This document shows positions 17,753 through 56,162 of a stretch of 64,000 nt of DNA, in pieces. The stretch is from Eledone cirrhosa (taxonomy: Eukaryota), in NCBI GenBank assembly GCA_964016885.1, contig OZ024741.1, positions 59,272,001-59,336,000 on the forward strand, read 5' to 3'. The notes beneath the pieces were generated by a model. It was given only the letters and a program-made list of their open reading frames with translations, was not told where the DNA came from and made no database searches. Position 1 is the stretch's first letter. The number at the start of each line of letters is the position of its first letter. The position numbers and the translations under genes are program-made.

Positions 17753-20209
17753 AAGATCTCAGTCCAGAAACATTGTCTTAGAGAGATGTAAGTGTGTGAG
17801 GTCGGAATTTATCAGATCATCCCAGGTTTTTCTGGGTCTACCTACTCCGTAACTACCATCAATTTTGATCGCCCTGCACTTTTTTTATGCAGCTGTCGTC
17901 TTTCATGCGCATCACGTGACCATACCAACGTAGTCTTCTCTCAAGTAAACAGCATCTGATCCATCTTATTCCTAATTTCTCACTTAATTCATTTATGCTT
18001 TGCCGTTCACGTATATTACTATTACACATCCAACGGAGCATGCATGCTTCATTCCTTTCCAGTCTACGCAGGTCCTCTGCACGTAATGCCCATGTCTCAC
18101 TGCCATGTAGCATTGCTGTTCGTATACAGGGATCATACAAGCTGCCTTTCATTTTTAGAGAGAAACCTTTTGTGGCCAACAGCGGTATAAGCTCTCTGAA
18201 CTTTTTCCATCCCGTTCTGACTTTGGCTACTGTACTTTCAGAACACCCTCCACCACTGCTGATTTCGTCACCCAGGTAACGGAAAGTGTCTACTATTTCT
18301 ATAGAACCATCTGGGAAATGGAAGGAGCTAGTATCCTTTGGACACTTGCTACCTATTGCACCTGAGCATTGGCCACATGTAAAGTCTACGTTCTTAGATA
18401 GTTTACCTGTGATCCCACTACATCTTTTATGTACCCATACTTTGCATTTGTGACATAAAATGGAATTTCTGCCTACTCCTTTCCTACACGCTGAGCATGG
18501 CCATTTACCTGAGGGTACCTGTGCCCTATTTTCCTTTCTACGAACTAGAACTTTAGTCTTAGACAAGTTAACTTTAAGGCCTTTTGATTCTAGGCCATGC
18601 TTCCATGTTTCAAATTTCTTCTCTAGTTCAGCCATTGATTCAGCTATGAGCGTTAGATCATCTGCGTATAGGAGTTCCCATGGGCAGCCGATCTTGAACT
18701 CCTCTGTTATAGCCTGAAGGGCAATAATAAATAAGAGAGGGCTAAGGACAGAGCTTTGATGAACGCCAACTTTTACACTAAATTCTTCACAATATTCATT
18801 AACCTTACTGTTTCATTATACATAGCTTGTATAGCTCTCACAACCCATTCATCTACACCTAGTTTTCTAAGAGCCCACCAGATAATGGAGCGGGGGACTC
18901 TGTCAAAGGCTTTCTCCAGGTCTACAAAAGCTAAGTAGAGGGGTTTACTTTTAGCTAGGTACTTCTCTTGTACTCCTAGGTACTTCTCTTTTAGCTAGGT
19001 ACTTCTCTGTTGTACTTTTACCTGACACAAACCCAAACTGCATTTCATCTAGATCAATTCGCTCTCTGATTAGTTGCGCTATAACTCTTTCTGTGACCTT
19101 CATGACCTGGTCAACTAACTTAATGCATCTATAGTTTCCCCTATCTAGAGCATCCCCTTTACCCTTGTAGCAGTTAATGATGATGCTGCTATGCCAGTCT
19201 TTCGGTGTGACCCCACTCTGTATTACTTGGTTAACTATACGGGTTACCAGTGTGTCCCACCATACCAGATGCCTTCAACATCTCAGCAACTATTTCCGAA
19301 GGCCCAGCTACCTTGCCTGTCTTCATACCTTTGATTTCCTTACTTATTATACTACCTTTAACTTGCACCGCTGGTCCTTCGATTTGGGGCAGACTATCTT
19401 TTTTGTCATTTATTCTCCTCATTTAATAGTCTCTCGTAGTGACACTTCCAGGCTATCTTCTTATCAGTATCAGTGAGCGCAAGTACACCATTATCATTAC
19501 GGACACAGTTCTCCCCGACAATATATCACGGTTTTCCTTGACACATAGTCTAGCAATCCTGAACACCTCACGTTTTTGGTCCTCACGTTGCAGAACATGC
19601 TTGAACTTTCTATCCTCTGCTACCCTTTTTGCAAGGTACACTTGTCTCCTAGCTTCTCTCCTGGCCACTTGATAGTGCTCTCTACTTCCCCCATCCTGCC
19701 ATACTTTCCAAGCCTGCTTTTTGGCCTTGATTGTCTCTTCCACCTTACTGTTCCATCACCAAGTTACTCTCCTCCTGCCTATAGGTCTGCTCCAGCCACA
19801 GATTTCATCCGTTGCTTTCAGCAGGTTCACTTTCAAGAATTGCCACTGTTCCTCTATATTGCACGTCTCTAATTGCTCTTCCTTATTGTCAAAGGCATCA
19901 AGTAATAAGCTTTTAAATTTGTCACTGGCTATGGGGTCCTTCAACTTCAATATTCTTCTCCTCAAGGTATGCCTCCTCTGTCGACGAGTACGTCTATTCT
20001 TGACTATGAGGTCACTAACTACTAGGCTATGTTGGGAGGTTCATTCTTCACGGGGGAGGGATTTAGTGTTTACAACAGACATTTTGTCCCGTATTCTAGT
20101 AAGGATATAATCTATCTGGCTGGCGTGTTCCCCTGATATATAGGTGATCAAATGGTTTTCACGTTGTTTGAAGTTTGTGTTACAGATAGTTAGGCTATTT
20201 GGGTCACAG
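17753..20209 (-). mobile_element. RTE-clade LINE, decayed (APE end, RT, C-terminal domain)
   Basis: SQIDYIL (APE end), RT motifs across frameshifted ORFs, KWPCSAC..CHKCKVWVHKRCSG Cys cluster, GSETW. Interrupted at 20209 by (TA)n. Confidence 0.9.
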
Positions 20210-21108: not shown

Positions 21109-24100
21109 GATAGCAACTAACAGTGCTGCGATCGAATGTGGCTTTTTAGCCCAGCCAATGATCTAAAATGTCTTGCACAGAGTCGGCAACCAAAACATTT
21201 ACTGGGAATAGTCGGCTGTGGTTGGAGTTCGTGTACTTTTGCATGTCGCTTGAGTCCTCCTGCTGATTTACATTCTCTACCACATGTTTGGCAAGCATGA
21301 TGAGTAGCATCTCCAACAGCAGCCTGGTAGTCAACCACTGGTCTTACTTTATGACTGCGAAGATGACTTTCGAGTCCAGCTTTGCTTAGGCAGAGTCTCG
21401 CACAGACGCTGCATGTCAGAAACATAGGAGGACCCTCGCCGTCTGGAAGTGCAACAGCAATACCCTTCCTCACGTCCCGCTTTACTTTCTCGTGTGCGAT
21501 TCGAGATGCCTCAAAGGCAACTTTTCCCTCATATACAGTCTTTCTCCATTTATTACGATCAGCAGCAATATTTTCCCATGTATCAGCAGAGATGTTAGCG
21601 TCTTTCAGAGAGGCCTTCAAGGAATCCTTATACCTCTTTTTTGGTTTATGTGGCGGTCGTTTTCCTTTAACCAACTCTCCATAGAAGAGTTGTTTTGGTA
21701 TTCTAGAATCCTTCATCCTGGCAAGGTGACCACTCCAACGGAGTCGCTGCTTAAGCACAAGAGCTTCTATACTGTCACACATAGAGCTTTCCAAAATCTC
21801 GACATCACTGATGTGGTCCCTCCAGTGAACGCCATGTATCCGTCTGAGACACATCTGATGGAAACGCTCCAATTGCTTAAGGTGGCGTCGATATGTGACC
21901 CAGGTCTCGCAGGCATAAAGAAGACAAGAGAGTACACATGCCCTGTACACCTTTACCTTTGTCCTCCTGCATATGTCTCGCCGACCCCAGAGTCGCCTTT
22001 CTAGCTTTCCGAAAGCATCACTTGCTTTCCTAATCCTAAGTGAGATTTCACTGTCAAGGTTGCCGTATCGATTGACAGTGCTTCCCAGGTAGACAAACTG
22101 ATCAACCACTCCAAGTCGTTTGCCATACACATAGATGTTTGGTTCAGTGTACTGCCCACCAGGTGCAGGTTGGTACATGACGACGGTTTTCTTGAGACTG
22201 ACAGTCAAACCCAGGGCAGTGCAAGCGTCAGAAAATACATTCAAAATGTGCTGCATATCACTCTCTGTGTGCGCTACAAGATCGCAATCATCTGCATACA
22301 AGAGGTCTCTTATGACTGATGTAAATACTTTTGTCTTCGCAGCAAAGCGCCTGATGTTAAATATGCTGCCTGAGGTTCGATATCGGATGTAAACACCATG
22401 CTCGCAATTCCTGAATGCAATACAGAAAACCATTGCAAAGTATATGGCAAACAGGGTCGGTGCTGGAATATCCCCCTGCTTCACTCCATTTTTTACTGAG
22501 ATAGGCTCCGACATGTTACCTCCGACATTAACCCAAGCCTTCATGTCGTCATGGAAAGACCTAACTAAAGCAAGGAACTTATCAGGGCAACCAAGTTTCT
22601 GGAGAACCTTCCATAATGCATCTCTGTTGACAGTATCGAAAGCCTTTGTCAGATCGACAAAAACCTGATACAGATCCAAGCCCTGTTCAATGCACTTCTC
22701 CTGGAGCTGTCTAGCTGAGAAGATCATATCAGTAGTGCCGCGTCCAACACGAAAACCAGATTGACTTTCAGGAAGGACACAATCTGCAATGTGTGTCAGC
22801 AGACGGTCCAGAAGCACCCTACATAAAACTTTCCCCACGACAGAAAGCAATGATATACCTCTGTAGTTCCCACAATCATTCCTGTTACCCTTTCCCTTGT
22901 ACAAGACCACCATTACTGCATCTCTCCAGTCCTCAGGCACGGATTCATTAGCCCATATCCTTCCAAACAGAGAGTGAAGATGTTGCAGGAGTCTCTCACC
23001 ACCATATTGTAGGAGCTCAGCATGTATGCCATCCATACCTGGAGATCTTCCACTGTTCAGCTTCGAAATAGCCACTGCAACCTCCACAAGTGTCGGAGGT
23101 TCTGCGAGAGCTACTTTCACAGGACTTTCCGGAATGAGATTGAGGAAATCTTCACTGACGACAGACGGCTGATTCAAAAGATCATCAAAGTGCTCTCGCC
23201 ACCTTCGTAGAATTCCCTGTGAGTCACGAAGAAGTTCTTTGCCATCCTTGCTGCGAATCGGTGTCACCAGAGAAGAAGACGGTCCATAAACCTCACGCAA
23301 GAGACTGTACAACAGCTTTGTGTTATTGCAATCAGACGCAGTTTGTATCTCACCAGCCTTCTCACTCCACAACTGATCCTTCATCTGAGAAAGACTCCGC
23401 CTAACACGTGATTTTACATCCCTGAGCTCCTCATGCAACGTATTCCTCTCCTGTGGTTTTGCCGTCAAGTAGCGTGACAGAGCGCGCCTCTTATCAGCCA
23501 ACAAGTCATCTATATGCACATCTTTCTCATTAAACCAGTCCTGATGTTTTCTCTGCACCAATCCCAGAACACGTCTGCCTACATCATAAACCGACTTTTT
23601 AAGGGTCGGCCAATCCTCACCAAGATCTGCAGCCTGCATCTCTTCTTCCAATGTCCTCTTCACATTTTTATCCTTAAGACGAGCAGCATTCAATCTTTTG
23701 GGCAGGGTAACACCAGGAGCCCGGATTTTACGTTTGGTGATTAGATTCACTTTTGCGCGTACCAGGCGGTGGTCCGTCCAGCACTCAGCTCCACGAAGAA
23801 CACGAACACACTGCACATCCTGTCTGTCACGCATCCTGACTAGGACGTAGTCCAAAAGATGCCATTCCTTAGATGCAGGATGCATCCATGTGGTCTTGAA
23901 TTTGTTCTTTTGTTGGAACATGGTGTTGGTAACACACAGATCCAGCTCCTCACACATCTGCAGCAAGAGCATACCATTGCTGTTACACTTTCCCACCCCA
24001 TGCCTTCCGATTACATTCCATGTGTTAAAATCCCTACCCACTCTAGCATTAAAGTCACCAAGCACGATGACTTTGTCTGCCTGAGGGATATTTCTTAAAA

Positions 24101-24670
24101 CACCTTTCAAGGCATGGTAAAAGGACAGTTTTTCTTCATCGACAGAATTCATAGTTGGAGCATACACACTCACCAGGGTAGCATATCTTCCCTTGTCCAG
24201 CGGAACTCTCATGGACATAAGACGCTCACTAATCCCCACTGGGAATTCTTCTAATTTATTCACCAGTACAGTCTTAACAGCAAATCCTACCCCAGCCTCT
24301 CTTCTGGTTCCTTCATCTCTTCCTTTCCAGAAGAATGTATATTCTCCACAAAATTCCGTAAGATGACCATCTCCAGCTAACCTCGTCTCAGACAAAGCCA
24401 CGATGTCAAGATCGTAACGTCGAAGCTCCTTCGCAACAAGAGCGGTCCTTCGTTCAGGACGCTCCAAAGAATCCCTGTCAAGCAGCGTCCGTACGTTCCA
24501 GCAGCCAAGACTAAATGCCCTGTTTGGCTCTATTACAATGGCACGATGACTGGCGGGCCCAGGTTGTGATAACTTGGGGCCCCTGCCCTTATTGCCAATG
24601 ATCTTTTTTGTTCCAGAACCCAAATTGGCAATTATCTCGTTTACATTGTTCTGGAACATCATTGAATTGG

Positions 24671-24701
<31 letters not shown>

Positions 24702-24706
24702 TAATA

Positions 24707-24743
<37 letters not shown>

Positions 24744-25045
24744 ACTATTAATAATTATTAATGCACTCGTGCAATGCCTGTGCGTGACGAATATTTTTAA
24801 AGTGAGGAAAGACTGTGCACTGAACCAATCCCACTCTCTGAGCGACAGTAGCTATAACCCGAAAAGAAGAAAAGATCAACATCATCGGTAACTACTGAGC
24901 CGCAGGTTTTATATCGGAGTTAACCCAGTTTCCTGAGATGCCTTCTCCTAGAAGAATACCCTGACATGGGCTAGGGGTTCTTCACTCCCAGTGGTTTAAC
25001 TGCGCGATCGGGCATCCAGCCCGATTATTTCTATGTCCCCGCGCA
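20594..25045 (-). mobile_element. Apparently full-length RTE/BovB-type LINE (5' UTR, single ORF, 3' UTR with terminal stem-loop)
   Basis: Intact ORF 21117-24662. The 5' UTR contains a TAGGAGAAGG..AAACC motif I recall from RTE 5' ends. The 3' terminal hairpin at 20597-20630 is shared with 53172-53203. Confidence 0.85.
21117..24662 (-). CDS. RTE LINE polyprotein: APE endonuclease + reverse transcriptase + three C2H2 zinc fingers, 1181 aa
   Basis: WNVRTL, ALSETR, GDFNARVG, LLDYVL, TDHRLV (APE). NYRGISLLS, FVDLTKAFD, GVKQG, LYADD (RT). CSVC..HLRSH, CQTC..HAKVH, CRLC..HIRSQH (zinc fingers). No internal stops. Confidence 0.96.
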   Translation of the reverse strand: MMFQNNVNEIIANLGSGTKKIIGNKGRGPKLSQPGPASHRAIVIEPNRAFSLGCWNVRTLLDRDSLERPERRTALVAKELRRYDLDIVALSETRLAGDGHLTEFCGEYTFFWKGRDEGTRREAGVGFAVKTVLVNKLEEFPVGISERLMSMRVPLDKGRYATLVSVYAPTMNSVDEEKLSFYHALKGVLRNIPQADKVIVLGDFNARVGRDFNTWNVIGRHGVGKCNSNGMLLLQMCEELDLCVTNTMFQQKNKFKTTWMHPASKEWHLLDYVLVRMRDRQDVQCVRVLRGAECWTDHRLVRAKVNLITKRKIRAPGVTLPKRLNAARLKDKNVKRTLEEEMQAADLGEDWPTLKKSVYDVGRRVLGLVQRKHQDWFNEKDVHIDDLLADKRRALSRYLTAKPQERNTLHEELRDVKSRVRRSLSQMKDQLWSEKAGEIQTASDCNNTKLLYSLLREVYGPSSSLVTPIRSKDGKELLRDSQGILRRWREHFDDLLNQPSVVSEDFLNLIPESPVKVALAEPPTLVEVAVAISKLNSGRSPGMDGIHAELLQYGGERLLQHLHSLFGRIWANESVPEDWRDAVMVVLYKGKGNRNDCGNYRGISLLSVVGKVLCRVLLDRLLTHIADCVLPESQSGFRVGRGTTDMIFSARQLQEKCIEQGLDLYQVFVDLTKAFDTVNRDALWKVLQKLGCPDKFLALVRSFHDDMKAWVNVGGNMSEPISVKNGVKQGDIPAPTLFAIYFAMVFCIAFRNCEHGVYIRYRTSGSIFNIRRFAAKTKVFTSVIRDLLYADDCDLVAHTESDMQHILNVFSDACTALGLTVSLKKTVVMYQPAPGGQYTEPNIYVYGKRLGVVDQFVYLGSTVNRYGNLDSEISLRIRKASDAFGKLERRLWGRRDICRRTKVKVYRACVLSCLLYACETWVTYRRHLKQLERFHQMCLRRIHGVHWRDHISDVEILESSMCDSIEALVLKQRLRWSGHLARMKDSRIPKQLFYGELVKGKRPPHKPKKRYKDSLKASLKDANISADTWENIAADRNKWRKTVYEGKVAFEASRIAHEKVKRDVRKGIAVALPDGEGPPMFLTCSVCARLCLSKAGLESHLRSHKVRPVVDYQAAVGDATHHACQTCGRECKSAGGLKRHAKVHELQPQPTIPSKCFGCRLCARHFRSLAGLKSHIRSQHC

Positions 25046-27208: not shown

Positions 27209-27960
27209 CTAGCTAAACTATCCGTCCTTCGGACGGTTCAAGTAGCTTTCGATGTAGCTCATTAAACTAAACAAAGTAAATTTGAATACATAGACGAAAA
27301 ACGTACTTTGTGTAAACATGAAAACCCTAGGCACTATTCCAGCGAAATAATTAATATGTGAGCTCGGTGTCGTCTGTTATGCCATGTAACAACAGAAATC
27401 CAGTCTAGGTATACATTTTTTTTACAACAGTAAAAGCGCATCATGAAATAGAGAAGTGAAGTGAATAATAGACACTATTATGTACAAAGAATAATATTGT
27501 AAAAGTTATGAGATCACTTAATGTATGAACATCAAGCTTGAAACGATAAATTATACGATGTCAAATCTATAACTTTAATCTGTTAGAAATTGCTGGTTGT
27601 GAAATATACAAAATGATATTGTTAGTCTCAAGGAAGCATACCTTTTGTTTCAAGTACAAAGAGTAAATAAAAATCCGAATGAGCCCAATTACGAAAGATA
27701 ACTCTTGTCTTACTTAAAGATAACTCTCGCTTACTTAATCACCAACATTGACACAAATAACTGAAACTTTTTTAATGTCTTCAAAGGGCCCAATATCAAT
27801 TTTTGAAAGCCTTTGTAGATCATGTACAGATTTTGTGCAAGGAGAAGCTCTATAAAAGATTTCAAAGAAATCGCATGAATGGTTTAGAATATATAGAGCC
27901 TTCATTAAAAATTGTCCACACACACACATACAGAAAACTTCGTCTTTATATATATACAGA
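27209..27960 (-). mobile_element. Non-autonomous Helitron
   Basis: Minus strand A|TC... 5' end at 27960, hairpin CCGTCC-TTC-GGACGG at 27222-27236, CTAG|T 3' end at 27209. No TSD. Confidence 0.75.
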
Positions 27961-27984
27961 TATATATGTGTGTGTGTGTATATA

Positions 27985-28073
<89 letters not shown>

Positions 28074-28138
28074 CGTAAGATAAGAAAATATTTTTTTAAA
28101 AAAATTTTAAAAAAATTTTTTTACTTACTTAAATTTTC

Positions 28139-28220
28139 ACTCCAACTAATTAGTTTCTGCAATGGGATAAAGACAGTTACGTAATCCAACTGTCGAGAAT
28201 TCATTGCGTCATCAGGGAGT
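28139..28220 (-). ncRNA. Type I hammerhead ribozyme (558-bp array, copy 1)
   Basis: ACTCC-CTGATGA-CGCAATG..(GACAGTT/AACTGTC hairpin)..CATTGCA-GAA-ACTAATTAGT-T^GGAGT. Confidence 0.85.
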
Positions 28221-28696
28221 CTATTCTCAGCTGAGTCTCCAGGCAATGCGCGGACACTGGCGGCTCATATAAAAATAATAATAATTCGGTAGAAAGAACA
28301 GCTTGCGAGGACTGGATTCTATGTACTGAAATTCTCACTGCTTCTAGTCAAATGGCCGATTCTAAAGAATCAATCACGTGACACAGAGGCTAGTTAGAAG
28401 GAATGGGATGGTAAGATGACTGACGCCTACTAACACCCCAAAAAAAATTTAGAAGTGGTTTTGGCAGGTTTGCTCGACAAATCAGTGATTTGGAGATAAA
28501 TATAGATAATTTAATATATCAGCTAACATAGGCGCACAGATGCACGTCCATGCCAGCAAATACACAGGTTATGTCATAATACCTAGGTGGTTCAATGCAC
28601 GAGGGTGCAGAACAATAATATAAAAGACGTAAGATAAGAAAATATTTTTTAAAAAAAATTTTTTTAAATTTTTTTTACTTACTTACTTAAATTTTC

Positions 28697-28778
28697 ACTC
28701 CAACTAATTAGTTTCTGCAATGGGATAAAGACAGTTACGTAATCCAACAGTCGAGAATTCATTGCGTCATCAGGGAGT
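28697..28778 (-). ncRNA. Type I hammerhead ribozyme (558-bp array, copy 2)
   Basis: Same motif, one substitution in loop II. Confidence 0.85.
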
Positions 28779-29253
28779 CTATTCTCAGCTGAGTTTCCAG
28801 GCAATGCGCGGACACTGGCGGCTCATATAAAAATAATAATAATTCGGTAGAAAGAACAGCTTGCGAGGACTGGATTCTATGTACTGAAATTCTCACTGCT
28901 TCTAGTCAAATGGCCGATTCTAAAGAATCAATCACGTGACACAGAGGCTAGTTAAAAGGAATGGGATGGTAAGATGACTGACGCCTACTAACACCCCCAA
29001 AAAAATTTAGAAGTGGTTTTGGCAGGTTTGCTCGACAAATCAGTGATTTGGAGATAAATATAGATAATTTAATATATCAGCTAACATAGGCGCACAGATG
29101 CACGTCCATGCCAGCAAATACACAGGTTATGTCATAATACCTAGGTGGTTCAATGCAGGAGGTGCAGAACAATAATATAAAAGACGTAAGATAAGAAAAT
29201 ATTTTTTAAAAAAAATTTAAAAAAAATTTTTTTACTTACTTACTTAAATTTTC

Positions 29254-29335
29254 ACTCCAACTAATTAGTTTCTGCAATGGGATAAAGACAGTTACGTAAT
29301 CCAACTGTCGAGAATTCATTGCGTCATCAGGGAGT
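29254..29335 (-). ncRNA. Type I hammerhead ribozyme (558-bp array, copy 3)
   Basis: Same motif. Confidence 0.85.
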
Positions 29336-29811
29336 CTATTCTCAGCTGAGTCTCCAGGCAATGCGCGGACACTGGCGGCTCATATAAAAATAATAATAAT
29401 TCGGTAGAAAGAATAGCTTGCGAGGACTGGATTCTATGTACTGAAATTCTCACTGCTTCTAGTCAAATGGCCGATTCTAAAGAATCAATCACGTGACACA
29501 GAGGCTAGTTAGAAGGAATGGGATGGTAAGATGACTGACGCCTACTAACACCCCAAAAAAAATTTAGAAGTGGTTTTGGCAGGTTTGCTCGACAAATCAG
29601 TGATTTGGAGATAAATATAGATAATTTAATATATCAGCTAACATAGGCGCACAGATGCACGTCCATGCCAGCAAATGCACAGGTTATGTCATAATACCTA
29701 GGTGGTTCAATGCAGGAGGGTGCAGAACAATAATATAAAAGACGTAAGATAAGAAAATATTTTTTTAAAAAAATTTTTTAAAAATTTTTTTACTTACTTA
29801 CTTAAATTTTC

Positions 29812-29893
29812 ACTCCAACTAATTAGTTTCTGCAATGGGATAAAGACAGTTACGTAATCCAACTGTCGAGAATTCATTGCGTCATCAGGGAGT
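29812..29893 (-). ncRNA. Type I hammerhead ribozyme (558-bp array, copy 4)
   Basis: Same motif. Confidence 0.85.
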
Positions 29894-30850
29894 CTATTCT
29901 CAGCTGAGTCTCCAGGCAATGCGCGGACACTGGCGGCTCATATAAAAATAATAATAATTCGGTAGAAAGAACAGCTTGCGAGGACTGGATTCTATGTACT
30001 GAAATTCTCACTGCTTCTAGTCAAATGGCCGATACTAAAGAATCAATCACGTGACACAGAGGCTAGTTAGAAGGAATGGGATGGTAAGATGACTGACGCC
30101 TACTAACACCCCAAAAAAAATTTAGAAGTGGTTTTGGCAGGTTTGCTCGACAAATCAGTGATTTGGAGATAAATATAGATAATTTAATATATCAGCTAAC
30201 ATAGGCGCACAGATGCACATCCATGCCAGCAAATACACAGGTTATGTCATAATACCTAGGTGGTTCAATGCAGGAGGGTGCAGAACAATAATATAAAAGA
30301 CGTAAGATAAGAAAATATTTTTAAAAAAAAATTTTTTTTTAATTTTTTTACTTACTTACTTAAATAGTTGGAGTGAAAATTTAAGTAAGTAAGTAAAAAA
30401 ATTTTTTTTTAATTTTTTTTAAAAAATATTTTCTTATCTTACGTCTTTTATATTATTGTTCTGCACCCTCCTGCATTGAACCACCTAGGTATTATGACAT
30501 AACCTGTGTATTTGCTGGCATGGACGTGCATCTGTGCGCCTATGTTAGCTGATATATTAAATTATCTATATTTATCTCCAAATCACTGATTTGTCGAGCA
30601 AACCTGCCAAAACCACTTCTAAATTTTTTTTGGGGTGTTAGTAGGCGTCAGACATCTTACCATCCCATTCCTTCTAACTAGCCTCTGTGTCACGTGATTG
30701 ATTCTTTAGAATCGGCCATTTGACTAGAAGCAGTGAGAATTTCAGTACATAGAATCCAGTCCTCGCAAGCTGTTCTTTCTACCGAATTATTATTATTTTT
30801 ATATGAGCCGCCAGTGTCCGCGCATTGCCTGGAGACTCAGCTGAGAATAG

Positions 30851-30932
30851 ACTCCCTGATGACGCAATGAATTCTCGACAGTTGGATTACGTAACTGTCT
30901 TTATCCCATTGCAGAAACTAATTAGTTGGAGT
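30851..30932 (+). ncRNA. Type I hammerhead ribozyme (inverted copy)
   Basis: Reads directly on the plus strand: actcc ctgatga cgcaatg...cattgca gaaactaattagtt ggagt. Confidence 0.85.
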
Positions 30933-31124
30933 GAAAATTTAAGTAAGTAAGTAAAAAAATTTAAAAAAAATTTTTTTTTTAAAATATTTTCTTATCTTAC
31001 GTCTTTTATATTATTGTTCTGCACCCTCCTGCATTGAACCACCTAGGTATTATGACATAACCTGTGTATTTGCTGGCATGGACGTGCATCTGTGCGCCTA
31101 TGTTAGCTGATATATTAAATTATC

Positions 31125-31155
<31 letters not shown>

Positions 31156-33168: not shown

Positions 33169-33470
33169 ATAAACTTGTTATAATGTCATAATAGTTCCTT
33201 TGTTCTTTTTCATTAATATATATATACATATGTGTGTGTGTATGTGTGTATGTATATATATATATGTGTGTGTGTATATGTGTATGTATATATATATATA
33301 TATATATATGGAGGAGGTTATAGTTCACTTGAAGCATTGTGTAATGAGGTATAAACGTTTGTATATGTATAATAAAGCCAAAACAATGCAGGTATGGACA
33401 TAGAATAAAGAATGCAAATGCAAAAGATATTGTTGACAATTAGTCTTTTACCTTAGATTTATTTAAATGT

Positions 33471-33505
33471 CCTTAATTTTCGAGATAATATCTCTTCTTC
33501 AGAGG
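33471..33505 (-). ncRNA. Possible minimal hammerhead in the 3' UTR of the Penelope-like element
   Basis: CCT-CTGAAGA-A-GAGAT-ATT-ATCTC-GAA-AATT-A^AGG. Stem I is only 3 bp. Confidence 0.5.
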
Positions 33506-33906
33506 GAAGTAAAGGTCTCAAACCAGTGTTCTAAATAGCTTGCCAAGTCATGCTGACAGGAAATGGTATAGAGTATCTGTTCGATCTCTAATGTCAAAGA
33601 GTTAAAATTAGGTGGATAAAGAGTAGTCTCCCTTTAAAAGGGGTTTGTTTTTGTTTTTTTGTTTTTTTAATACATGCCTGTTTAAGTGTGTGGGAGAATG
33701 CATGAAGGTGTAAGTATATGAGTGTGTGTGTGTGAGTGTGAGAAGATAAGTATATTCGTAAATGTGGGGGATAGGTGTTATCTGGTGTTAGAACTGGTTT
33801 TGTGTGTGTATGTGTGAGAGAGAATAAGTGGAGGTGTAAGCGTGTGTGCGTGTGTGTGTGCGTGTGTGTGTGTGGGATGTGTGTAAATATGTGGCGAGAA
33901 GCTCTA

Positions 33907-35304
33907 TCAGGTTATAAATTGGGTGTTGAGTTCTAGTCTATTATTGATTGGTGGTTGTGTTTTATCTGTAATTAGTGCTTCCTTAATTCTAAGATTGCCG
34001 AGGTTTCTTTCCTTAGTTTCTATCCTAAATGTTATGGTTTTGTCGGTGTTTTTGCATTTAACTAGGTGTTTCTTAAATGAGGAAGCGTTAGTATTGAGGT
34101 GTTCTTTTATTCTTATGTGGAGTGGTCTGGTGGTGCTACCTACGTAGAAGTTGTTGCATTTGTCACACTCTAGTCTGTATACGACGTAAGCCTGGTGGCA
34201 TAGGTCTGTGTCGTTGATGGGGCAGTTGGCTAGTCTGCAGCAGTTGTCATGTCTGGTGGAGTGTCTTTTGGTTAGCTGTCCGCGTAGAGAAGGACCTGAG
34301 TGGGCCAGTTGGATATCTAGTCCTTCTCGTCTGATGGCTCTGCGGATGGCTGTTGTTGTTTCTTCACTGAAGTGTGGGAGCTTCAGGAAGTAAGTGTTAG
34401 TGCCTCGGGTGTGGTGTCCTCTGTTCTTTCTGGCACGGTTTGTGGTGGATGTCGTGTATCCGTTCAGTTTGAGTACTTCCAGGAAATGTGTGGTGTGTGT
34501 GTCTCGGTCTCTAGCGTCGGTGCATTTGTTCTGGATACGTGCCAGTTCGTTTCTTATGTATCCGAACTTGGCACCGAGTGGGAGGGCCGATCTGAAATGT
34601 ACGAACAGGTCCCTGCTGGCGGCTTTTTTATAGAAGCAGGTGTGGATGTTGCCTTCCTCTGTTACCCTGAGTTGGAAGTCCAGTAGGGATAGGGATCCGC
34701 GGTCATCGGGGTGTTCCATGCTGAACTTTATACTGGCGTCCATGCTGGAGAATGTTGTGTATATTTTATCTGCCTCCTCACGGGATGATGTAAGGATGAG
34801 TATGTCATCTACATATCGGGTGAAGAAGGTATGGGAATAGCAGGTGTTGTGGGCTCGGCATTCTAGCTGTTTCATGTAGGTGATGGCCAGCAGGCCCGAT
34901 AGGCTGGATCCCATGGGTAATCCTGTTGTCTGTCTGTGTGTGTGATGGTGGAAGGTGAAGTACGTGTTGTCTACTGTGAAGGACAAAAGCTGGTGTATGT
35001 CCGTCGGGTGGAGGCCGTAGCAGTGGATGTCCTCTGCGACCACACAGTCCGTCAATAAATCGACAGCTGGATGAGCGGAGACTGTAGTGTAGAGGGAGAC
35101 AACGTCGAGGCTAAAGGCGTATTTATTTAGTTTAAGTTGTTCTGGCTGGAGTTGATGTAGTCTACGTATAACTTCGTCGGAGCTACTGACATGCCCGGGA
35201 AAGGTGGAGAGTAGAGGCTTGAGGACCTGGGAGAGGAGCCAGGAAATTTTGTATAGGGGTCCTTCTATGCTAGAGACGATGGGTCTTATTTGCGTCTTAG
35301 TACT
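33907..35304 (-). mobile_element. Penelope-like element, 5'-truncated RT + GIY-YIG ORF
   Basis: The frame is open upstream of ORF 33907-35055 through RPIVSS..SLDVVSLYT. GLPMGSSLS, RYVDD, YVVYRLECDKCNNFYVGSTTRPLHIRIKEH. Confidence 0.92.
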
Positions 35305-35331
35305 ATTCTTTGCTTAAACTTTAATCTGTTA

Positions 35332-36406
<1,075 letters not shown>

Positions 36407-36414
36407 ATATATAT

Positions 36415-36831
<417 letters not shown>

Positions 36832-36936
36832 CATATATATATATACATATATATATATATACATATACATATATATATATATATATATACATATATATAC
36901 ATATACATATATATACATATATATATATATATATAC

Positions 36937-37169
<233 letters not shown>

Positions 37170-37176
37170 TATATAC

Positions 37177-37207
<31 letters not shown>

Positions 37208-37300
37208 CATATATATATACATATATATATATACATATATATATATACATATATATATATATACATATATATATACATATACATATACATATATATATAC

Positions 37301-37373
<73 letters not shown>

Positions 37374-37634
37374 CATATATATATACATATATATACATAT
37401 ATATATACATATATATATATACATATACATATATATATATATATATATATAGTTAGAGAAGCAAAAAATTGCTTATTGTGATCCAGTTTTGGGTTAAGAA
37501 AGCCAGTTTCATGGATGGTTTCAACGTATGGTTAGGAGTAACTCCACAAGTTTGTAAGAATTCCGTTCAATCTTGGAGTATAAAGTATAAAAGAGAAAAC
37601 ACAGGTAAGCATTAAGAGAAGGATTTAATCCAGG

Positions 37635-52686: not shown

Positions 52687-52718
52687 CAATTTGTATGACT
52701 GACGCCGGAAGATGGGTA

Positions 52719-52763
52719 AATATTGCTGATGAGATGTAATAACATCGAAACTAGTCCAATATT
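52719..52763 (+). ncRNA. Minimal type I hammerhead ribozyme
   Basis: AATATTG-CTGATGA-GATGT-AATA-ACATC-GAA-ACTAGT-C^CAATATT. Perfect stems. Confidence 0.9.
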
Positions 52764-52980
52764 CCTGTCTGGCCCTCTGGAGAATAGAGGAAATGTGTTT
52801 CCTTGAAAACTCGTATGACTCTAAAACCCGGTCCGCCTGTGTGGTTACATACAGACTAGCTGACACTCACTGTAAAGTGTCTAGTGAAAAGCTGAGTACA
52901 TGTACATATGTATACATGTGTGTATTTATATGCATACTAATACTTCCGTATACATATGTAGATGTACACTTTAACTTAAT

Positions 52981-53094
<114 letters not shown>

Positions 53095-53107
53095 CATATA
53101 TATATAC

Positions 53108-53162
<55 letters not shown>

Positions 53163-53171
53163 CATATATAT

Positions 53172-53445
53172 GGTGGCTGCCAACTCGTTTTCGAGTATGG
53201 CCACTACTTTATATCCATGTAGGAGAACTCCTACCGATGGGCTGAACGTGTGTGACTTTTTAGTCCAGCCAGCGACTTGAAAACTCTGGTACAAACACTA
53301 CACTTGTGACAATTATTGACACATAGTACTGGGCCCATGTGACGACAAGTGCAGAGAGATCTCCAGATATAAAGCAATGCCTGTGCCGTGAAGCTTTTAT
53401 AGTGAGCAAAGTCACTGCACAAAACCAGTCCCACTCTCTTAACCA
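53172..53445 (-). mobile_element. Decayed 3' end of a zinc-finger RTE LINE
   Basis: [22 protein letters not shown] resembles the last finger of 21117-24662. Shared terminal hairpin. Confidence 0.75.
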
Positions 53446-53451
53446 TATACA

Positions 53452-53632
<181 letters not shown>

Positions 53633-53634
53633 GC

Positions 53635-53683
53635 GATTCCTGATGATTTCTAATGAATGAAACAGTTCTAGTCCTGTAGAATC
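53635..53683 (+). ncRNA. Type I hammerhead ribozyme with stable stem III
   Basis: GATTC-CTGATGA-TTTC-TAAT-GAAT-GAA-ACAG-TTCTAGTC-CTGT-A^GAATC. Confidence 0.82.
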
Positions 53684-53739
53684 TCATCTATATATATACA
53701 TATATATATATATATACATATATAAATTGAAATGAAAGC

Positions 53740-53856
<117 letters not shown>

Positions 53857-53871
53857 CATATATATATATAC

Positions 53872-53902
<31 letters not shown>

Positions 53903-53991
53903 CATATATATATATACATATATATATATATACATATATATATATACATATATATATATATACATATATATATATACATATATATATATAC

Positions 53992-54040
<49 letters not shown>

Positions 54041-54041
54041 C

Positions 54042-54088
<47 letters not shown>

Positions 54089-54089
54089 C

Positions 54090-54124
<35 letters not shown>

Positions 54125-54135
54125 CATATATATAG

Positions 54136-54406
<271 letters not shown>

Positions 54407-54491
54407 CATATATACATATATACATATATACATATATATGTATATACATATATATATATATGTATATACATATATATATATATGTATATAC

Positions 54492-54523
<32 letters not shown>

Positions 54524-55079
54524 ATATACCTATATATATATATATATATACCTATATATATATATATAAAAGACGTAAAATAAGAAAATCCTTTAAAAAA
54601 ATTTTTTTGTACTAGTTTTGTACTAGTTTCAAGCTTGTTAGCTATCATCAGCACCGTTTACCCATCTGCCAGATAGTTGAACGTTCGAAAGTATATACTT
54701 TCCTTATGAAAATTAACGGCTGAGCAGCCTAATTTGCATATTGAGTGAGTTAAATCGGTCAGGCATACCGAAAACGATAAATTGAAACAAAATGAAAACG
54801 AAATTTCATTTCTCACTCTTAGTATGGCACTTACTTAAATGTAAGTATGCATGTATACGTACATACATATATGTATACAGACGTACAGTAGCATGCACAT
54901 ATATATATATATATACATATATATATACATATGCATACAGGTACACATACATATATGCACGTATCAGTTTAGCGGCGCTAACGTCGCTTTGTTCGTTTGT
55001 AAACAAACTGAACAGCCTGAATTTATGCCATACGGTGTTAAGGCAACCACGTCACCTTTTTGTTCAACACTGACACAGG

Positions 55080-55124
55080 AACGATGTACTAGTTTCAAGC
55101 TTGTTAACTATCATCAGCACCGTT
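55080..55124 (-). ncRNA. Minimal type I hammerhead (466-bp array)
   Basis: AACGGTG-CTGATGA-TAGTT-AACA-AGCTT-GAA-ACTAGT-A^CATCGTT. Confidence 0.85.
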
Positions 55125-55545
55125 TACCCATCTGCCAGATAGTTGAACGTTCGAAAGTATATACTTTCCTTATGAAAATTAACGGCTGAGCAGCCTAATT
55201 TGCATATTGAGTGAGTTAAATCGGTCAAGCATACCGAAAACGATAAATTGAAACAAAATGAAAACGAAATTTCATTTCTCACTCTTAGTATGGCACTTAC
55301 TTAAATGTAAGTATGCATGTATACGTACATACATATATGTATACAGACGTACAGTAGCATGCACATATATATATATATATACATATATATATACATATGC
55401 ATACAGGTACACATACATATATGCACGTATCAGTTTAGCGGCGCTAACGTCGCTTTGTTCGTTTGTAAACAAACTGAACAGCCTGAATTTATGCCATACG
55501 GTGTTAAGGCAACCACGTCACCTTTTTGTTCAACACTGACACAGG

Positions 55546-55590
55546 AACGATGTACTAGTTTCAAGCTTGTTAGCTATCATCAGCACCGTT
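55546..55590 (-). ncRNA. Minimal type I hammerhead (466-bp array)
   Basis: AACGGTG-CTGATGA-TAGCT-AACA-AGCTT-GAA-ACTAGT-A^CATCGTT. Confidence 0.87.
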
Positions 55591-55666
55591 TACCCATCTG
55601 CCAGATAGTTGAACGTTCGAAAGTATATACTTTCCTTATGAAAATTAACGGCTGAGCAGATGGGTA

Positions 55667-55711
55667 AACGGTGCTGATGATAGCTAACAAGCTTGAAACT
55701 AGTACATCGTT
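55667..55711 (+). ncRNA. Minimal type I hammerhead (inverted copy)
   Basis: Same motif, read on the plus strand. Confidence 0.87.
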
Positions 55712-56162
55712 CCTGTGTCAGTGTTGAACAAAAAGGTGACGTGGTTGCCTTAACACCGTATGGCATAAATTCAGGCTGTTCAGTTTGTTTACAAACGAAC
55801 AAAGCGACGTTAGCGCCGCTAAACTGATACGTGCATATATGTATGTGTACCTGTATGCATATGTATATATATATGTATATATATATATATATGTGCATGC
55901 TACTGTACGTCTGTATACATATATGTATGTACGTATACATGCATACTTACATTTAAGTAAGTGCCATACTAAGAGTGAGAAATGAAATTTCGTTTTCATT
56001 TTGTTTCAATATATACATATATATATACACATATATAAATTGAAATGAATGCATCTGGTGTGTGTGTTCCTTATTGGCAACATGACCCTCCCAAAGTATA
56101 ACAATATCGGTTTCAACACACGCTTTCAGATAAAGAATCTTGCTAAACAAATTCAGAAACGA

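What the first reader, a model, noticed from the sequence alone, without database searches (positions are those of the whole stretch)
54569..56010. 466-bp array ends at its own cleavage site and carries the 3' tail of a different family
Seen: on the ribozyme strand the array stops 2 nt after GUA^. It continues with an 11-nt stutter (TGTACTAGTTT at 54608 and 54619) and then about 40 nt (AAAGACGTAAAATAAGAAAAT..., 54569-54607) matching the terminus of the unrelated 558-bp family. The other end is inverted for about 355 bp. Inference: the RT began on one RNA's tail and jumped to the cleaved 3' end of another, implying in vivo cleavage and shared machinery.
Basis: partly seen in the sequence, partly recalled or inferred. 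Interest (0 to 1): 0.75.

Follow-up and report, generated by a model that had tools for sequence, protein, structure and literature searches.

The report
Ribozyme repeat joined to another repeat's tail
A young 466-base hammerhead-motif repeat inserted head-to-head in a TA microsatellite ends on one side in the last 39 bases of a second such repeat family; this is likely an ordinary scar of two neighbouring insertions plus a deletion, not a sign of RNA self-cutting.

Summary
The sequence observation is confirmed. On the minus strand the 466-nt array (54619-55659) stops 2 nt after the predicted hammerhead site GUA^. An exact 11-nt duplicate follows, then 39 nt that match the fixed 3' end of the 558-nt family, then 1.1 kb of (TA)n. 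The other end is a 359-nt, 100% inverted arm.

Both families are abundant non-coding hammerhead-motif repeats of the known animal retrozyme kind. They carry the insertion footprint of Penelope-like elements: TA-microsatellite targets, head-to-head arms, and two fixed 3' end sites per family (466: ~251 and ~310; 558: 84 and ~205). The window's right arm ends at the family's own site 310. Its left arm ends in the 558 family's site 84.

The tail is not native to the 466 family. Only 4 places genome-wide put this ribozyme within 90 nt of the tail. One of them (L064) is clearly a 558 array nested into a pre-existing 466 element with a target deletion.

I favour the same two-event origin here (0.5) over a one-event reverse-transcriptase template switch (0.3). 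A jump onto a self-cleaved 3' end is not supported: C1.1 and A1.2 beyond the cut are kept, twice, and ends at the cleavage nucleotide are not clearly enriched. This is an ordinary new member of a known kind.

The parts
53445..54568 (.). (TA)n microsatellite, 1.1 kb: target and left flank of the insertion
   Evidence: TRF row 53445-54568; sequence read
54569..54607 (-). 39-nt piece of the 558-nt family (unit positions about 41-84), ending at that family's fixed 3' end site 84 (...ACGTCTTTT) against (AT)n
   Evidence: BLAST to the 558 unit q41-84 at 86%; 22-nt core has 3057 exact genomic matches; 17 of 46 unique 558 arm 3' ends lie at position 84
54608..54618 (-). 11-nt exact duplicate (AAACTAGTACA on the minus strand) of the array's last 11 nt
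   Evidence: TRF period 11, 2.3 copies, 100%; sequence
54619..55659 (-). Sense (ribozyme-strand) arm of the 466-nt family: unit positions 360-466, 1-466, 1-466, then 1-2
   Evidence: TRF; BLAST architecture of L061; 2 of 466 differences between units
54621..54659 (-). Terminal hammerhead motif, incomplete: helix I 3' strand is missing beyond C1.1 and A1.2 (54620, 54619)
   Evidence: Motif scan
55080..55125 (-). Complete hammerhead motif: AAACGGTG-CTGATGA-T-AGTT-AACA-AGCT-T-GAAA-CTAG-TA^CATCGTT
   Evidence: Motif scan; helix I covariation
55546..55591 (-). Complete hammerhead motif
   Evidence: Motif scan; weak Rfam HH9 hit at 55535-55597, 18.5 bits against a gathering score of 52
55656..55659 (.). 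GCAG microhomology at the head-to-head junction of the two arms (unit position 360 of the left arm, 418 of the right arm)
   Evidence: Inverted repeat I1; junction sequence
55660..56014 (+). Inverted arm: unit positions 418-466 then 1 to about 306-310. It ends at the 466 family's own fixed site of about 310 against TA-rich flank and carries one complete hammerhead motif at 55666-55711
   Evidence: 10 of 25 unique 466 arm 3' ends lie at 304-310
56011..56037 (.). TA-rich remnant on the right flank
   Evidence: TRF 56009-56037; sequence

Best explanation
The 39-nt tail is likely the product of a separate, severely 5'-truncated retrotransposition of the 558-nt family into the TA tract at the 3' end of an already inserted 466-nt element, and the last ~250 nt of the 466 arm would have been lost when the two were joined.

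Shown: the 466 element is a young, two-armed, head-to-head insertion of a non-coding hammerhead-motif repeat in a (TA)n microsatellite. Its right arm ends at the family's fixed site of about 310. The tail ends at the 558 family's fixed site 84, directly against (TA)n. Both families, and a 424-nt sister family, follow one rule: each arm ends at one of two fixed sites, and paired arms use one site each. This is the footprint described for Penelope-like elements.

Inferred: the left arm first ended at the 466 family's other site (about 251). A 558 RNA was then reverse-transcribed from a nick in the adjoining (TA)n, for only about 44 nt. The 5' joining, or a later break repair in the fragile TA tract, removed 466 positions 3-251 and left an 11-nt templated duplicate. 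That the break lies 2 nt from the ribozyme site would be coincidence.
For: (1) Family rule. Unique arm 3' ends cluster as follows: 466 family at 247-255 (8) and 304-310 (10) of 25; 424 family at 218-221 (10) and 270-277 (6) of 20; 558 family at 84 (17) and 205-208 (18) of 46. Paired arms use one site each in 5 of 6 pairs for 466, 3 of 4 for 424 and at least 17 pairs for 558. The window's left arm alone breaks the rule, ending at position 2.

(2) Precedent. L064, extended, reads: inverted 466 arm ending at 305; 466 sense arm up to position 30; 558 from position 53 through four units to 84; about 26 TA; then 466 from about 175 to 466 and 1-251. This is a 558 array nested in the internal TA tract of a canonical 466 element. 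The target lost positions 31 to about 174, and the 5' junction uses AAAAA microhomology.

(3) 558 arrays often lie just 3' of 466/424 arms in the same TA tract, with 4-21 nt of TA left between them: L062 and L170-L173. A few deletion-type junctions are therefore expected.

(4) Short 558 arms are common. Unique 5' ends lie at positions 36-59 in 7 of 65 arms. Solo fragments of about 70-115 nt in TA tracts exist (L019, L027; window 36416-36660).

(5) The bases kept beyond the ribozyme site (C, A) match the unit's own continuation in both stutter copies. This fits joining to existing 466 DNA or to uncleaved RNA, not to a cleaved end.

(6) An exact duplicate of the 11 nt next to the junction is the kind of templated insertion that microhomology-mediated end joining leaves. 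That attribution is recalled knowledge, not tested here.
Against: No remainder of the 466 arm (positions ~190-251) lies left of the tail anywhere in the window. The deletion must therefore have removed the whole end of the arm, at least 249 nt, and unlike L064 nothing proves two events here.

The 466 element is very young: its arms are 100% identical over 359 nt. That leaves little time for a second event.

A 44-nt single-arm 558 insertion is at the short end of what was sampled.

The pairing of a 558 site-84 end on the left with a 466 site-310 end on the right mimics the normal pairing of a proximal-site end with a distal-site end. A single event using two RNAs would explain that directly.

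Direct 466/424-to-558 junctions were found only with the ribozyme anchor (3, at +2, +30 and about +63). None were found with three other anchors covering unit positions about 95-170, 274-350 and 385-466. A pure deletion model does not predict this clustering.
Confidence: 0.5

Rival explanations
1. One event. A Penelope-type reverse transcriptase, primed by the nicked (TA)n, started at the 558 RNA's fixed site 84 and copied about 44 nt into the A/U tract. It then switched, twice at the same nucleotide, onto an uncleaved multimeric or circular 466 RNA and copied 2.2 units. The cDNA from the opposite DNA end, primed at 466 site 310, was joined to it head-to-head.
For: The two outer ends pair a site-84 end with a site-310 end, like normal paired arms that use one site of each type. 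Short first arms of 27-87 nt joined to another cDNA are common in two-armed 558 insertions (L151, L156, L153, L025). The A/U-only tract where the 558 part stops should give a weak hybrid (inference). Direct junctions cluster 2-63 nt after the ribozyme site: 3 there against 0 in three other zones. Purified PAc protein cleaves and extends both strands and starts internally on the RNA (PMC11167929, main text read). An earlier scan note on this genome (e1-9517734, unchecked) reports a head-to-head Penelope-retrozyme pair.
Against: No case proves inter-family switching. One of the three direct junctions (L064) is a nested insertion. None of 65 sampled 558 arm 5' ends continues into another family in sense orientation. 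There is at most 1 nt of microhomology at the switch. If both arms normally come from one RNA molecule, two RNAs in one complex is an extra assumption.
Confidence: 0.3
2. One reading: the reverse transcriptase jumped from the 558 tail onto the 3' end of a self-cleaved 466 RNA, so the junction records cleavage in vivo.
For: The junction lies within 2 nt of the predicted site. Elsewhere some arms do end or restart exactly at GUA. L180 ends at position 424 directly against (TA)n. L177 and L062 read 424 then 202-277 and 424 then 247-277: a short piece from the fixed distal site and then exactly the cleavage nucleotide. 558 arm 5' ends are enriched at positions 1-17: 10 of 65 against about 2 expected if uniform.
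Against: A cleaved RNA ends in A17, yet both stutter copies keep C1.1 and A1.2, which match the uncleaved sequence. Real family junctions exactly at GUA number 4-5 in the first 100 of 537 hits, against 4 in the first 100 of 263 at control position 25. That is at most about twofold. The other direct junctions lie at +30 and about +63. In PAc, ribozyme mutants did not affect insertion in vitro, and no reads began or ended at the ribozyme site (PMC11167929, main text).
Confidence: 0.05
3. Reverse order: an older solo 558 fragment sat in the microsatellite, and the 466 element later inserted exactly at its 5' edge, perhaps because the endonuclease homes to tail sequences.
For: Solo 558 fragments exist (L019, L027; window 36416-36660). 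The Penelope endonuclease of D. virilis is reported to need the tail sequence for recognition, as cited in PMC11167929 (main text read).
Against: A target-primed 466 arm should end at one of its two fixed sites, as about 18 of 25 sampled arms do, not at position 2 with a stutter. Exact abutment with no TA left would be a further coincidence.
Confidence: 0.07
4. Assembly artefact: the join between TA tract, tail and array is a mis-join in a repeat-rich stretch.
For: Long TA tracts and near-identical repeats are hard to assemble.
Against: There is no N or break in the stretch. The junction has specific, non-repetitive structure. Analogous junctions exist at independent loci.
Confidence: 0.03

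Closest known systems
Animal non-LTR retrozymes (Cervera and de la Pena 2020, PMC7229834, passages read; Li, Clavereau and Pollet 2026, bioRxiv 10.64898/2026.07.22.740005, abstract and passages read)
   Same: Short non-coding tandem repeats, each unit carrying a type-I-style hammerhead motif with a tiny palindromic helix III; AT-rich; very abundant (more than 26,000 ribozyme copies); proposed to be non-autonomous derivatives of Penelope-like elements.
   Different: The unit of 466 nt is above the 170-400 nt quoted. The 10.1-11.1 position is U-U instead of the usual G-C. RNA, circles and self-cleavage were not tested here. The fixed end sites, TA targeting and the inter-family junction are not described in the passages I read.
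Penelope-like element insertion structure: partial tandems, inverted 5'-truncated copy, a 30-40 bp 'tail' at one end, microsatellite targets (Craig et al. 2021, PMC8557442, passages read; Frangieh et al. 2024, PMC11167929, main text read)
   Same: Head-to-head arms, tandem units, a (TA)n target, and two fixed reverse-transcription start sites, so that one arm carries an extra segment (59 nt in the 466 family, about 121 nt in the 558 family). An abundant intact RT plus GIY-YIG Penelope-like family that also targets (TA)n is in this genome and window.
   Different: Here the piece at the end comes from another family, not from the element's own sequence between its two start sites. No sequence link between the 466 or 558 units and the autonomous element was found.
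LINE-1 insertions with target-site deletions, nested insertions and twin-priming inversions (recalled from Ostertag and Kazazian 2001 and later work; not read here)
   Same: A 5'-truncated retrotransposition whose 5' junction removes adjacent target DNA by microhomology; inverted 5' parts from priming on both strands.
   Different: A different retroelement class and endonuclease. The microsatellite target makes target-site duplications and deletions unreadable except where the target is itself a repeat unit, as in L064.
Template-switch chimeras of non-LTR retrotransposons, such as U6-L1 chimeric retrogenes (recalled, Buzdin and colleagues 2002; not read here)
   Same: The 3' part comes from the element recognised by the RT, the 5' part from another RNA in the same orientation, with no target sequence between them.
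   Different: In those chimeras the acceptor is joined at its true 3' end and the chimeras recur many times. Here the 466 side is not at a known RNA end, only three direct junctions exist, and one of them is a nested insertion.

Membership tests
Hammerhead ribozyme (type I, dimer-dependent metazoan form) | Conserved core CUGANGA ... GAAA ... UH with the cleavage triplet | tested here: met
   CTGATGA or CTGACGA, GAAA and GTA are present in all 47 parsed distinct copies and in the window's 3 complete copies
Hammerhead ribozyme (type I, dimer-dependent metazoan form) | Helix I supported by compensatory changes | tested here: met
   Pair 3 occurs as G-U 19, U-G 16, A-U 7, C-G 2 of 47. The other five pairs are mostly invariant Watson-Crick. 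The sample includes loci chosen for a mutated C1.1.
Hammerhead ribozyme (type I, dimer-dependent metazoan form) | Helix II closed by the usual G10.1-C11.1 pair | tested here: not met
   Helix II is AGCU/AGCU (4 bp, nearly invariant) flanked by U and U in 47 of 47 copies. The 558 family has C and A there. PMC4209133 (passages) calls G10.1-C11.1 highly conserved.
Hammerhead ribozyme (type I, dimer-dependent metazoan form) | Short helix III with a palindromic loop allowing a dimer | tested here: met
   ACTAGT in 466/424 and ACTAATTAGT in 558 are palindromes spanning 15.1-16.1
Hammerhead ribozyme (type I, dimer-dependent metazoan form) | Score at or above the Rfam gathering threshold | tested here: not met
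   No match at gathering. The best is Hammerhead_HH9 at 18.5 bits against 52. A single copy folds no better than shuffles, z 0.38.
Hammerhead ribozyme (type I, dimer-dependent metazoan form) | Self-cleavage activity | not testable with these tools
   No RNA run holds the stretch. Contigs cannot show RNA ends.
Animal non-LTR retrozymes | Tandem non-coding units, each with a type I hammerhead, without LTRs | tested here: met
   2.2 units plus an inverted arm. No ORF of 120 aa or more lies inside 54660-56010. A motif occurs once per unit.
Animal non-LTR retrozymes | [quoted passage not shown] | not testable with these tools
   No RNA holder is listed. Unit-length permuted contigs in two runs fit tandem DNA equally well.
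Penelope-like-element type insertion (non-autonomous) | Partial tandem plus adjacent inverted 5'-truncated copy | tested here: met
   The same layout is seen at most sampled loci of all three families.
Penelope-like-element type insertion (non-autonomous) | Extra 'tail' at one end only, from two fixed reverse-transcription start sites | tested here: met
   At family level, ends cluster at two sites and pairs use one each. In this copy the right arm is at site 310 and the left arm is aberrant.
Penelope-like-element type insertion (non-autonomous) | Mobilised by an RT plus GIY-YIG element of the same genome | tested here: inconclusive
   An abundant TA-targeting family with RVT_1 and GIY-YIG domains and intact ORFs of about 905 aa exists. 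It shares no sequence with the 466 or 558 units.
RT template-switch chimera (U6-L1 type) | Acceptor RNA joined at its genuine 3' end | tested here: not met
   The 466 part runs 1-2 nt past the only predicted RNA end. The other direct junctions are at +30 and about +63.
RT template-switch chimera (U6-L1 type) | Recurrent independent chimeras of the same two partners without target DNA between them | tested here: inconclusive
   There are 3 direct junctions genome-wide in the zones searched. One of them is a nested insertion.

The most novel reading that the evidence does not exclude
The junction is one chimeric cDNA. A Penelope-type enzyme complex working on both ends of a single break in a TA microsatellite started on a 558 RNA at one end and on a 466 RNA at the other. 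The first cDNA then hopped onto the 466 RNA right beside its hammerhead. That would be a direct genomic footprint that two unrelated ribozyme repeats are copied by the same enzyme, and that this enzyme template-jumps. The exact-GUA junctions at L180, L177 and L062 would then mark self-cleaved RNA ends used as entry points.
Probability: 0.3. Interest if true: 0.6.

Novelty: new member of a known kind. Interest (0 to 1): 0.33.

Why it matters
If the junction were a single chimeric cDNA, it would link two retrozyme families to one reverse transcriptase and document template jumping by Penelope-like enzymes, whose mechanism is still poorly known. As it stands it is more likely a scar of two insertions crowding into one TA microsatellite.

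What remains useful is the family-level pattern: two fixed start sites per family, with one of each in paired arms. Frangieh et al. found two adjacent start sites in vitro. The pattern here suggests that the two DNA ends of a break may use different start sites. That is testable with their assay.

Two weaker leads point to in vivo cleavage: the enrichment of 558 arm 5' ends at the ribozyme site, and the rare arms that end or restart exactly at GUA. They are better leads than the junction that was flagged.

Tried and rejected
- DNA-mode search of the own genome with the 466 unit found nothing, not even the window's own copy, because very common words are skipped. I used exact patterns instead.
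- Rfam at gathering gave no family. At E-value threshold there was only a weak HH9 hit among many microRNA-like hits on the TA-rich and palindromic parts, which I take as chance.
- Folding one ribozyme copy alone gave z 0.38, which is uninformative for a dimer-type motif.
- RNA evidence: no RNA holder is listed. All four runs laid were contigs, which cannot show RNA ends, strand or level.
- Link to an autonomous element: the abundant Penelope-like family has no 466- or 558-like sequence within 1.5 kb of its ORF end in 29 other loci. No 558/466 locus holds its ORF except as incidental neighbours.
- 'Tail native to the 466 family' is rejected: one locus only.
- Other checks: a remainder of the 466 arm left of the tail was not found. 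Earlier scan notes by place returned nothing. The look-up by sequence returned an unrelated L1 note.
Full report
**What is there**

The window lies in a 3.0-Gb animal genome, at G000:C2:59272001-59336000. From 54619 to 55659, TRF finds a 466-nt period with 2.2 copies at 99%. Units 1 and 2 differ at 2 of 466 positions.

The minus strand of each unit carries a hammerhead-type motif: AAACGGTG-CTGATGA-T-AGCT-AACA-AGCT-T-GAAA-CTAG-TA^CATCGTT. Complete copies stand at 55080-55125 (-), 55546-55591 (-) and 55666-55711 (+).

From 55656 to 56014 the sequence is the exact reverse complement of 55243-55601: 359 nt at 100%. The two arms meet head-to-head at a GCAG microhomology.

On the left, the minus strand reads ...GAAACTAGTA^CA | AAACTAGTACA | AAAAAATTTTTTTAAAGGATTTTCTTATTTTACGTCTTTT | (AT)n. 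The (AT)n is the 1.1-kb microsatellite at 53445-54568.

**Is it a hammerhead?**

- The core nucleotides are all present.
- In 47 distinct parsed copies from sampled loci, helix I pair 3 occurs as G-U 19, U-G 16, A-U 7 and C-G 2. That is covariation. Helix II is a nearly invariant 4-bp AGCU/AGCU.
- Helix III is only the palindrome ACUAGU. PMC4209133 (passages read) describes this form for metazoan type I and Penelope-like-element hammerheads, which need a dimer.
- Against membership: the 10.1-11.1 position is U-U instead of G-C. Rfam gives nothing at gathering and only 18.5 bits against 52 for HH9. One copy folded alone is no better than shuffles.
- Activity is untested. I therefore write 'hammerhead motif' and 'predicted cleavage site'.

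**The families**

- The 27-mer spanning the site in the 466 subfamily has 14,804 exact genomic matches.
- A 424-nt sister subfamily, with G instead of T after ACA, accounts for most of 11,810 further matches.
- The 558-nt family forms a two-armed array in this same window at 28068-31134. It has its own motif...CTGATGA-C-GCAATG...CATTGC-A-GAAA-CTAATTAG-TT^GGAGTG.
- The 558 unit contains the tail sequence once, at positions about 58-84.
- The tail core has 3057 exact matches, with 0 for the reversed control. Of these, 868 are the T variant followed directly by (TA)n, meaning array ends.

**Insertion footprint**

I took natural single units as BLAST queries and mapped arms in the sampled loci. 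There were 60 loci for 466/424 and 60 for 558, and many of them overlap. Ends were de-duplicated by their sequence context.

| Family | Proximal site | Distal site | Unique 3' ends sampled |
|---|---|---|---|
| 466 | 247-255 (8) | 304-310 (10) | 25 |
| 424 | 218-221 (10) | 270-277 (6) | 20 |
| 558 | 84 (17) | 205-208 (18) | 46 |

All these sites read TTTA or TTTAT followed by TA repeats. Arms lie head-to-head with their 3' ends outward, and paired arms use one site each:

- 5 of 6 pairs in the 466 family;
- 3 of 4 pairs in the 424 family;
- at least 17 pairs in the 558 family. The 558 loci were chosen for a site-84 tail, so the informative point is that the partner arm is always at about 205.

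Arm 5' ends are scattered and joined by microhomology or at small palindromes.

These are the hallmarks given for Penelope-like elements: partial tandems, an adjacent inverted 5'-truncated copy, a tail at one end only, and microsatellite targets (PMC8557442, passages). In vitro, the PAc protein cleaves and extends both strands and starts reverse transcription at two adjacent internal sites (PMC11167929, main text read). A 2026 preprint argues that animal retrozymes are non-autonomous Penelope-like derivatives (10.64898/2026.07.22.740005, abstract and passages).

The genome has a very abundant Penelope-like family:

- The window holds a 5'-truncated copy at about 33320-35336 (-), with RVT_1 at 5.5e-15 and GIY-YIG at 24.1 bits against a cut-off of 22.6.
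- The first look found 33,177 candidates. The 91 scored were 95-100% identical, with open frames of up to about 905-957 aa.
- It forms 3.15-kb tandems that begin and end in (TA)n.
- It shares no sequence with the 466 or 558 units, so the mobiliser is not identified.

Earlier notes of this scan describe the same two-site, head-to-head, TA-targeted pattern in this and other genomes. I re-derived it here independently.

**This copy against the rule**

The right arm ends at about 306-310, the family's own distal site. The left arm should end at about 251. Instead it stops at unit position 2, repeats its last 11 nt, and carries 558 positions about 41-84, which end at 558 site 84 against (TA)n.

**Is the tail native to the 466 family?**

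No. A genome-wide pattern asking for the ribozyme end within 90 nt upstream of the tail found 4 places, against 1 for the reversed control.

- The window itself.
- L062. A complete 424 element with arm ends at 221 and 277, followed by ATAT and then a 558 array starting at position 38. These are neighbours, not a chimera.
- L063. 424 up to about position 63, joined directly to a 558-like unit.
- L064. 466 up to position 30, joined directly to 558 position 53 through AAAAA.

The same query with three other anchors gave these results:

- unit positions about 385-466: 0 hits;
- unit positions about 95-170: 0 hits;
- unit positions about 274-350: 4 hits. All 4 show a canonical distal-site end, then 4-21 nt of TA, then a 558 5' end. 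These are again neighbours.

The anchors occur as exact words 72-95% as often as the ribozyme anchor in my sample.

**The decisive comparison**

Extending L064 shows, in order:

1. an inverted 466 arm ending at 305;
2. a 466 sense arm up to position 30;
3. 558 from position 53 through four units to site 84;
4. about 26 TA;
5. 466 from about 175 to 466, then 1-251.

The 466 element is canonical, with one site-305 end and one site-251 end, and it is interrupted. A 558 array inserted into the unit's internal TA tract, and the target lost positions 31 to about 174. So a direct 466-to-558 junction with a non-canonical 466 end can arise from a second insertion with a target deletion.

In the window there is no 466 remainder left of the tail. 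If the same thing happened here, the nick was in the flanking (TA)n and the whole end of the arm (positions 3-251) was lost. The exact 11-nt duplicate is what microhomology-mediated end joining typically leaves (recalled, not tested), although a stuttering polymerase on RNA could also produce it.

**The cleaved-end idea**

A self-cleaved RNA would end in A17. Both stutter copies keep C and A, which are the unit's own next two bases. Three of three extra bases matching the natural continuation argues for a templated copy of uncleaved sequence.

For the enrichment test I listed hits where the 14-mer ending in GTA is followed by a base other than C. There were 537 hits and the first 100 were inspected. 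I fetched the seven that did not continue as the unit, or did so only after a short insert (L075; the others).

- Real junctions: L075 and L179 (arm then unrelated DNA), L180 (arm ends at 424 directly against (TA)n) and L177 (424 then 202-277).
- L182 is a 5-nt duplication.
- L178 and L181 are chance 14-mers outside the family.

The control was the 14-mer ending at unit position 25 followed by a base other than A. It gave 263 hits, with the first 100 inspected and ten fetched.

- Real junctions: L183, L187 and L192 (arm then unrelated DNA) and L190 (a 28-nt deletion).
- The other six: three chance hits, two A-run expansions and one divergent copy.

That is 4-5 per 100 of 537 against 4 per 100 of 263, at most about twofold on tiny numbers. 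There is no clear enrichment.

Some results do favour a role for cleaved RNA:

- L180 ends exactly at GUA against (TA)n.
- L177 and L062 restart exactly at GUA after 75 and 31 nt copied from the distal start site.
- 10 of 65 unique 558 arm 5' ends lie at unit positions 1-17, 3 of them at position 1, against about 2 expected if uniform. The A/T tract and a fold-back-prone sequence there are alternative causes.

These hints are worth following, but they do not rest on the flagged junction.

**Weighing**

- The two-event model needs a deletion of at least 249 nt. It is backed by a proven precedent (L064) and by frequent neighbouring of 558 arrays and 466/424 arm ends in one TA tract (five cases in restricted searches).
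- The one-event template switch explains the pairing of a site-84 end with a site-310 end, the shortness of the 558 piece, and the clustering of the three direct junctions within 63 nt after the ribozyme. It has no proven case and needs two RNAs in one complex.
- My weights: 0.5 for two events (insertion-coupled or later repair deletion), 0.3 for one-event switching onto uncleaved or circular RNA, 0.05 for a jump onto a cleaved end, 0.07 for the reverse order of insertion, and 0.03 for an assembly artefact.

**Limits**

- Counts come from exact-word patterns.
- Only the first 100 places and up to 30 loci per search could be read.
- The loci were selected on the motifs searched.
- Unit positions about 170-274 and 350-385 were not scanned.
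- No reads could be used to confirm the junction.
- No RNA data were available.
- Supplements of the papers were not opened.

Noticed in passing
window 28068-31134: Two-armed array of the 558-nt hammerhead-motif family. The minus-strand arm (about 4.1 units) ends at site 84 against (TA)n at 27947-28068. The plus-strand arm (about 1.4 units) ends at about position 205 against (AT)n at 31130-31152. The arms meet at about 30366 in a fold-back 4 nt before the predicted cleavage site.
   Followed up: partly
window 52712-52765 (+): A third, related hammerhead motif: GGGTAAATATTG-CTGATGA-GATGT-AATA-ACATC-GAAA-CTAG-TC^CAATATT. It has a canonical G-C closed helix II and a GUC triplet. Its helix I covaries with the 466 family. 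It is a single copy next to the (TA)n at 52981-53171.
   Followed up: no
window 36416-36660: Mini two-armed element of a 558-like subfamily embedded in the 1.4-kb (TA)n at 36080-37451. The sense arm ends at the tail (ACGTCTCTC followed by ATAT...).
   Followed up: partly
window about 33320-35336 (-); L137 (G000:C1:311366001-311376000): A 5'-truncated copy of a very abundant, young Penelope-like element (RVT_1 plus C-terminal GIY-YIG). Elsewhere it has intact open frames of about 905 aa and 3.15-kb partial tandems. Both ends lie in (TA)n and the 3' end reads ...CCTCCTCCATAT. The first look found 33,177 candidates.
   Followed up: partly
window 21117-24851 (-): A 1244-aa stop-to-stop frame with Exo_endo_phos, RVT_1 and C2H2 zinc fingers: an apparently intact LINE-type ORF2. 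Further RT fragments lie at 401-1285, 6991-8772 and 17859-18812.
   Followed up: no
L064 with L174 and L175 (G000:C3:314164001-314175400): A 558 array of 4.1 units nested in the internal TA tract of a canonical 466 element, with loss of target positions 31 to about 174. The TA tract inside retrozyme units is itself a landing site for other TA-targeting elements.
   Followed up: yes
L180 (G000:C1:240973000-240976000); L177 (C1:275921800-275924800); L062 (C2:307901963-307905036): Arms that end (L180) or restart (L177, L062) exactly at the predicted cleavage nucleotide. In L177 and L062, 75 and 31 nt copied from the distal start site are followed directly by ...GUA of the unit, skipping positions 1-201 and 1-246.
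   Followed up: partly
60 sampled 558-family loci (L001-L030, L140-L169): 5' ends of 558 arms are enriched just after the ribozyme site: 10 of 65 unique ends at unit positions 1-17, 3 of them at position 1, against about 2 expected. This is possible run-off on self-cleaved RNA, or an effect of the A/T tract there.
   Followed up: partly
and 56 runs: Near-identical 31-mers of the 466 unit are held by runs labelled as 16 different coded organisms (A-P) and by a wastewater metagenome. Two of these runs each give one unit-length, circularly permuted contig at depth 7-10 with 0-1 differences.
   Followed up: no
G000:C1:139513354-139513425, C1:142713859-142713930, C1:256129723-256129852 (one search list): Pairs of 558 tails facing each other across only about 10-70 nt of TA: two 3' ends converging in one microsatellite.
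   Followed up: no
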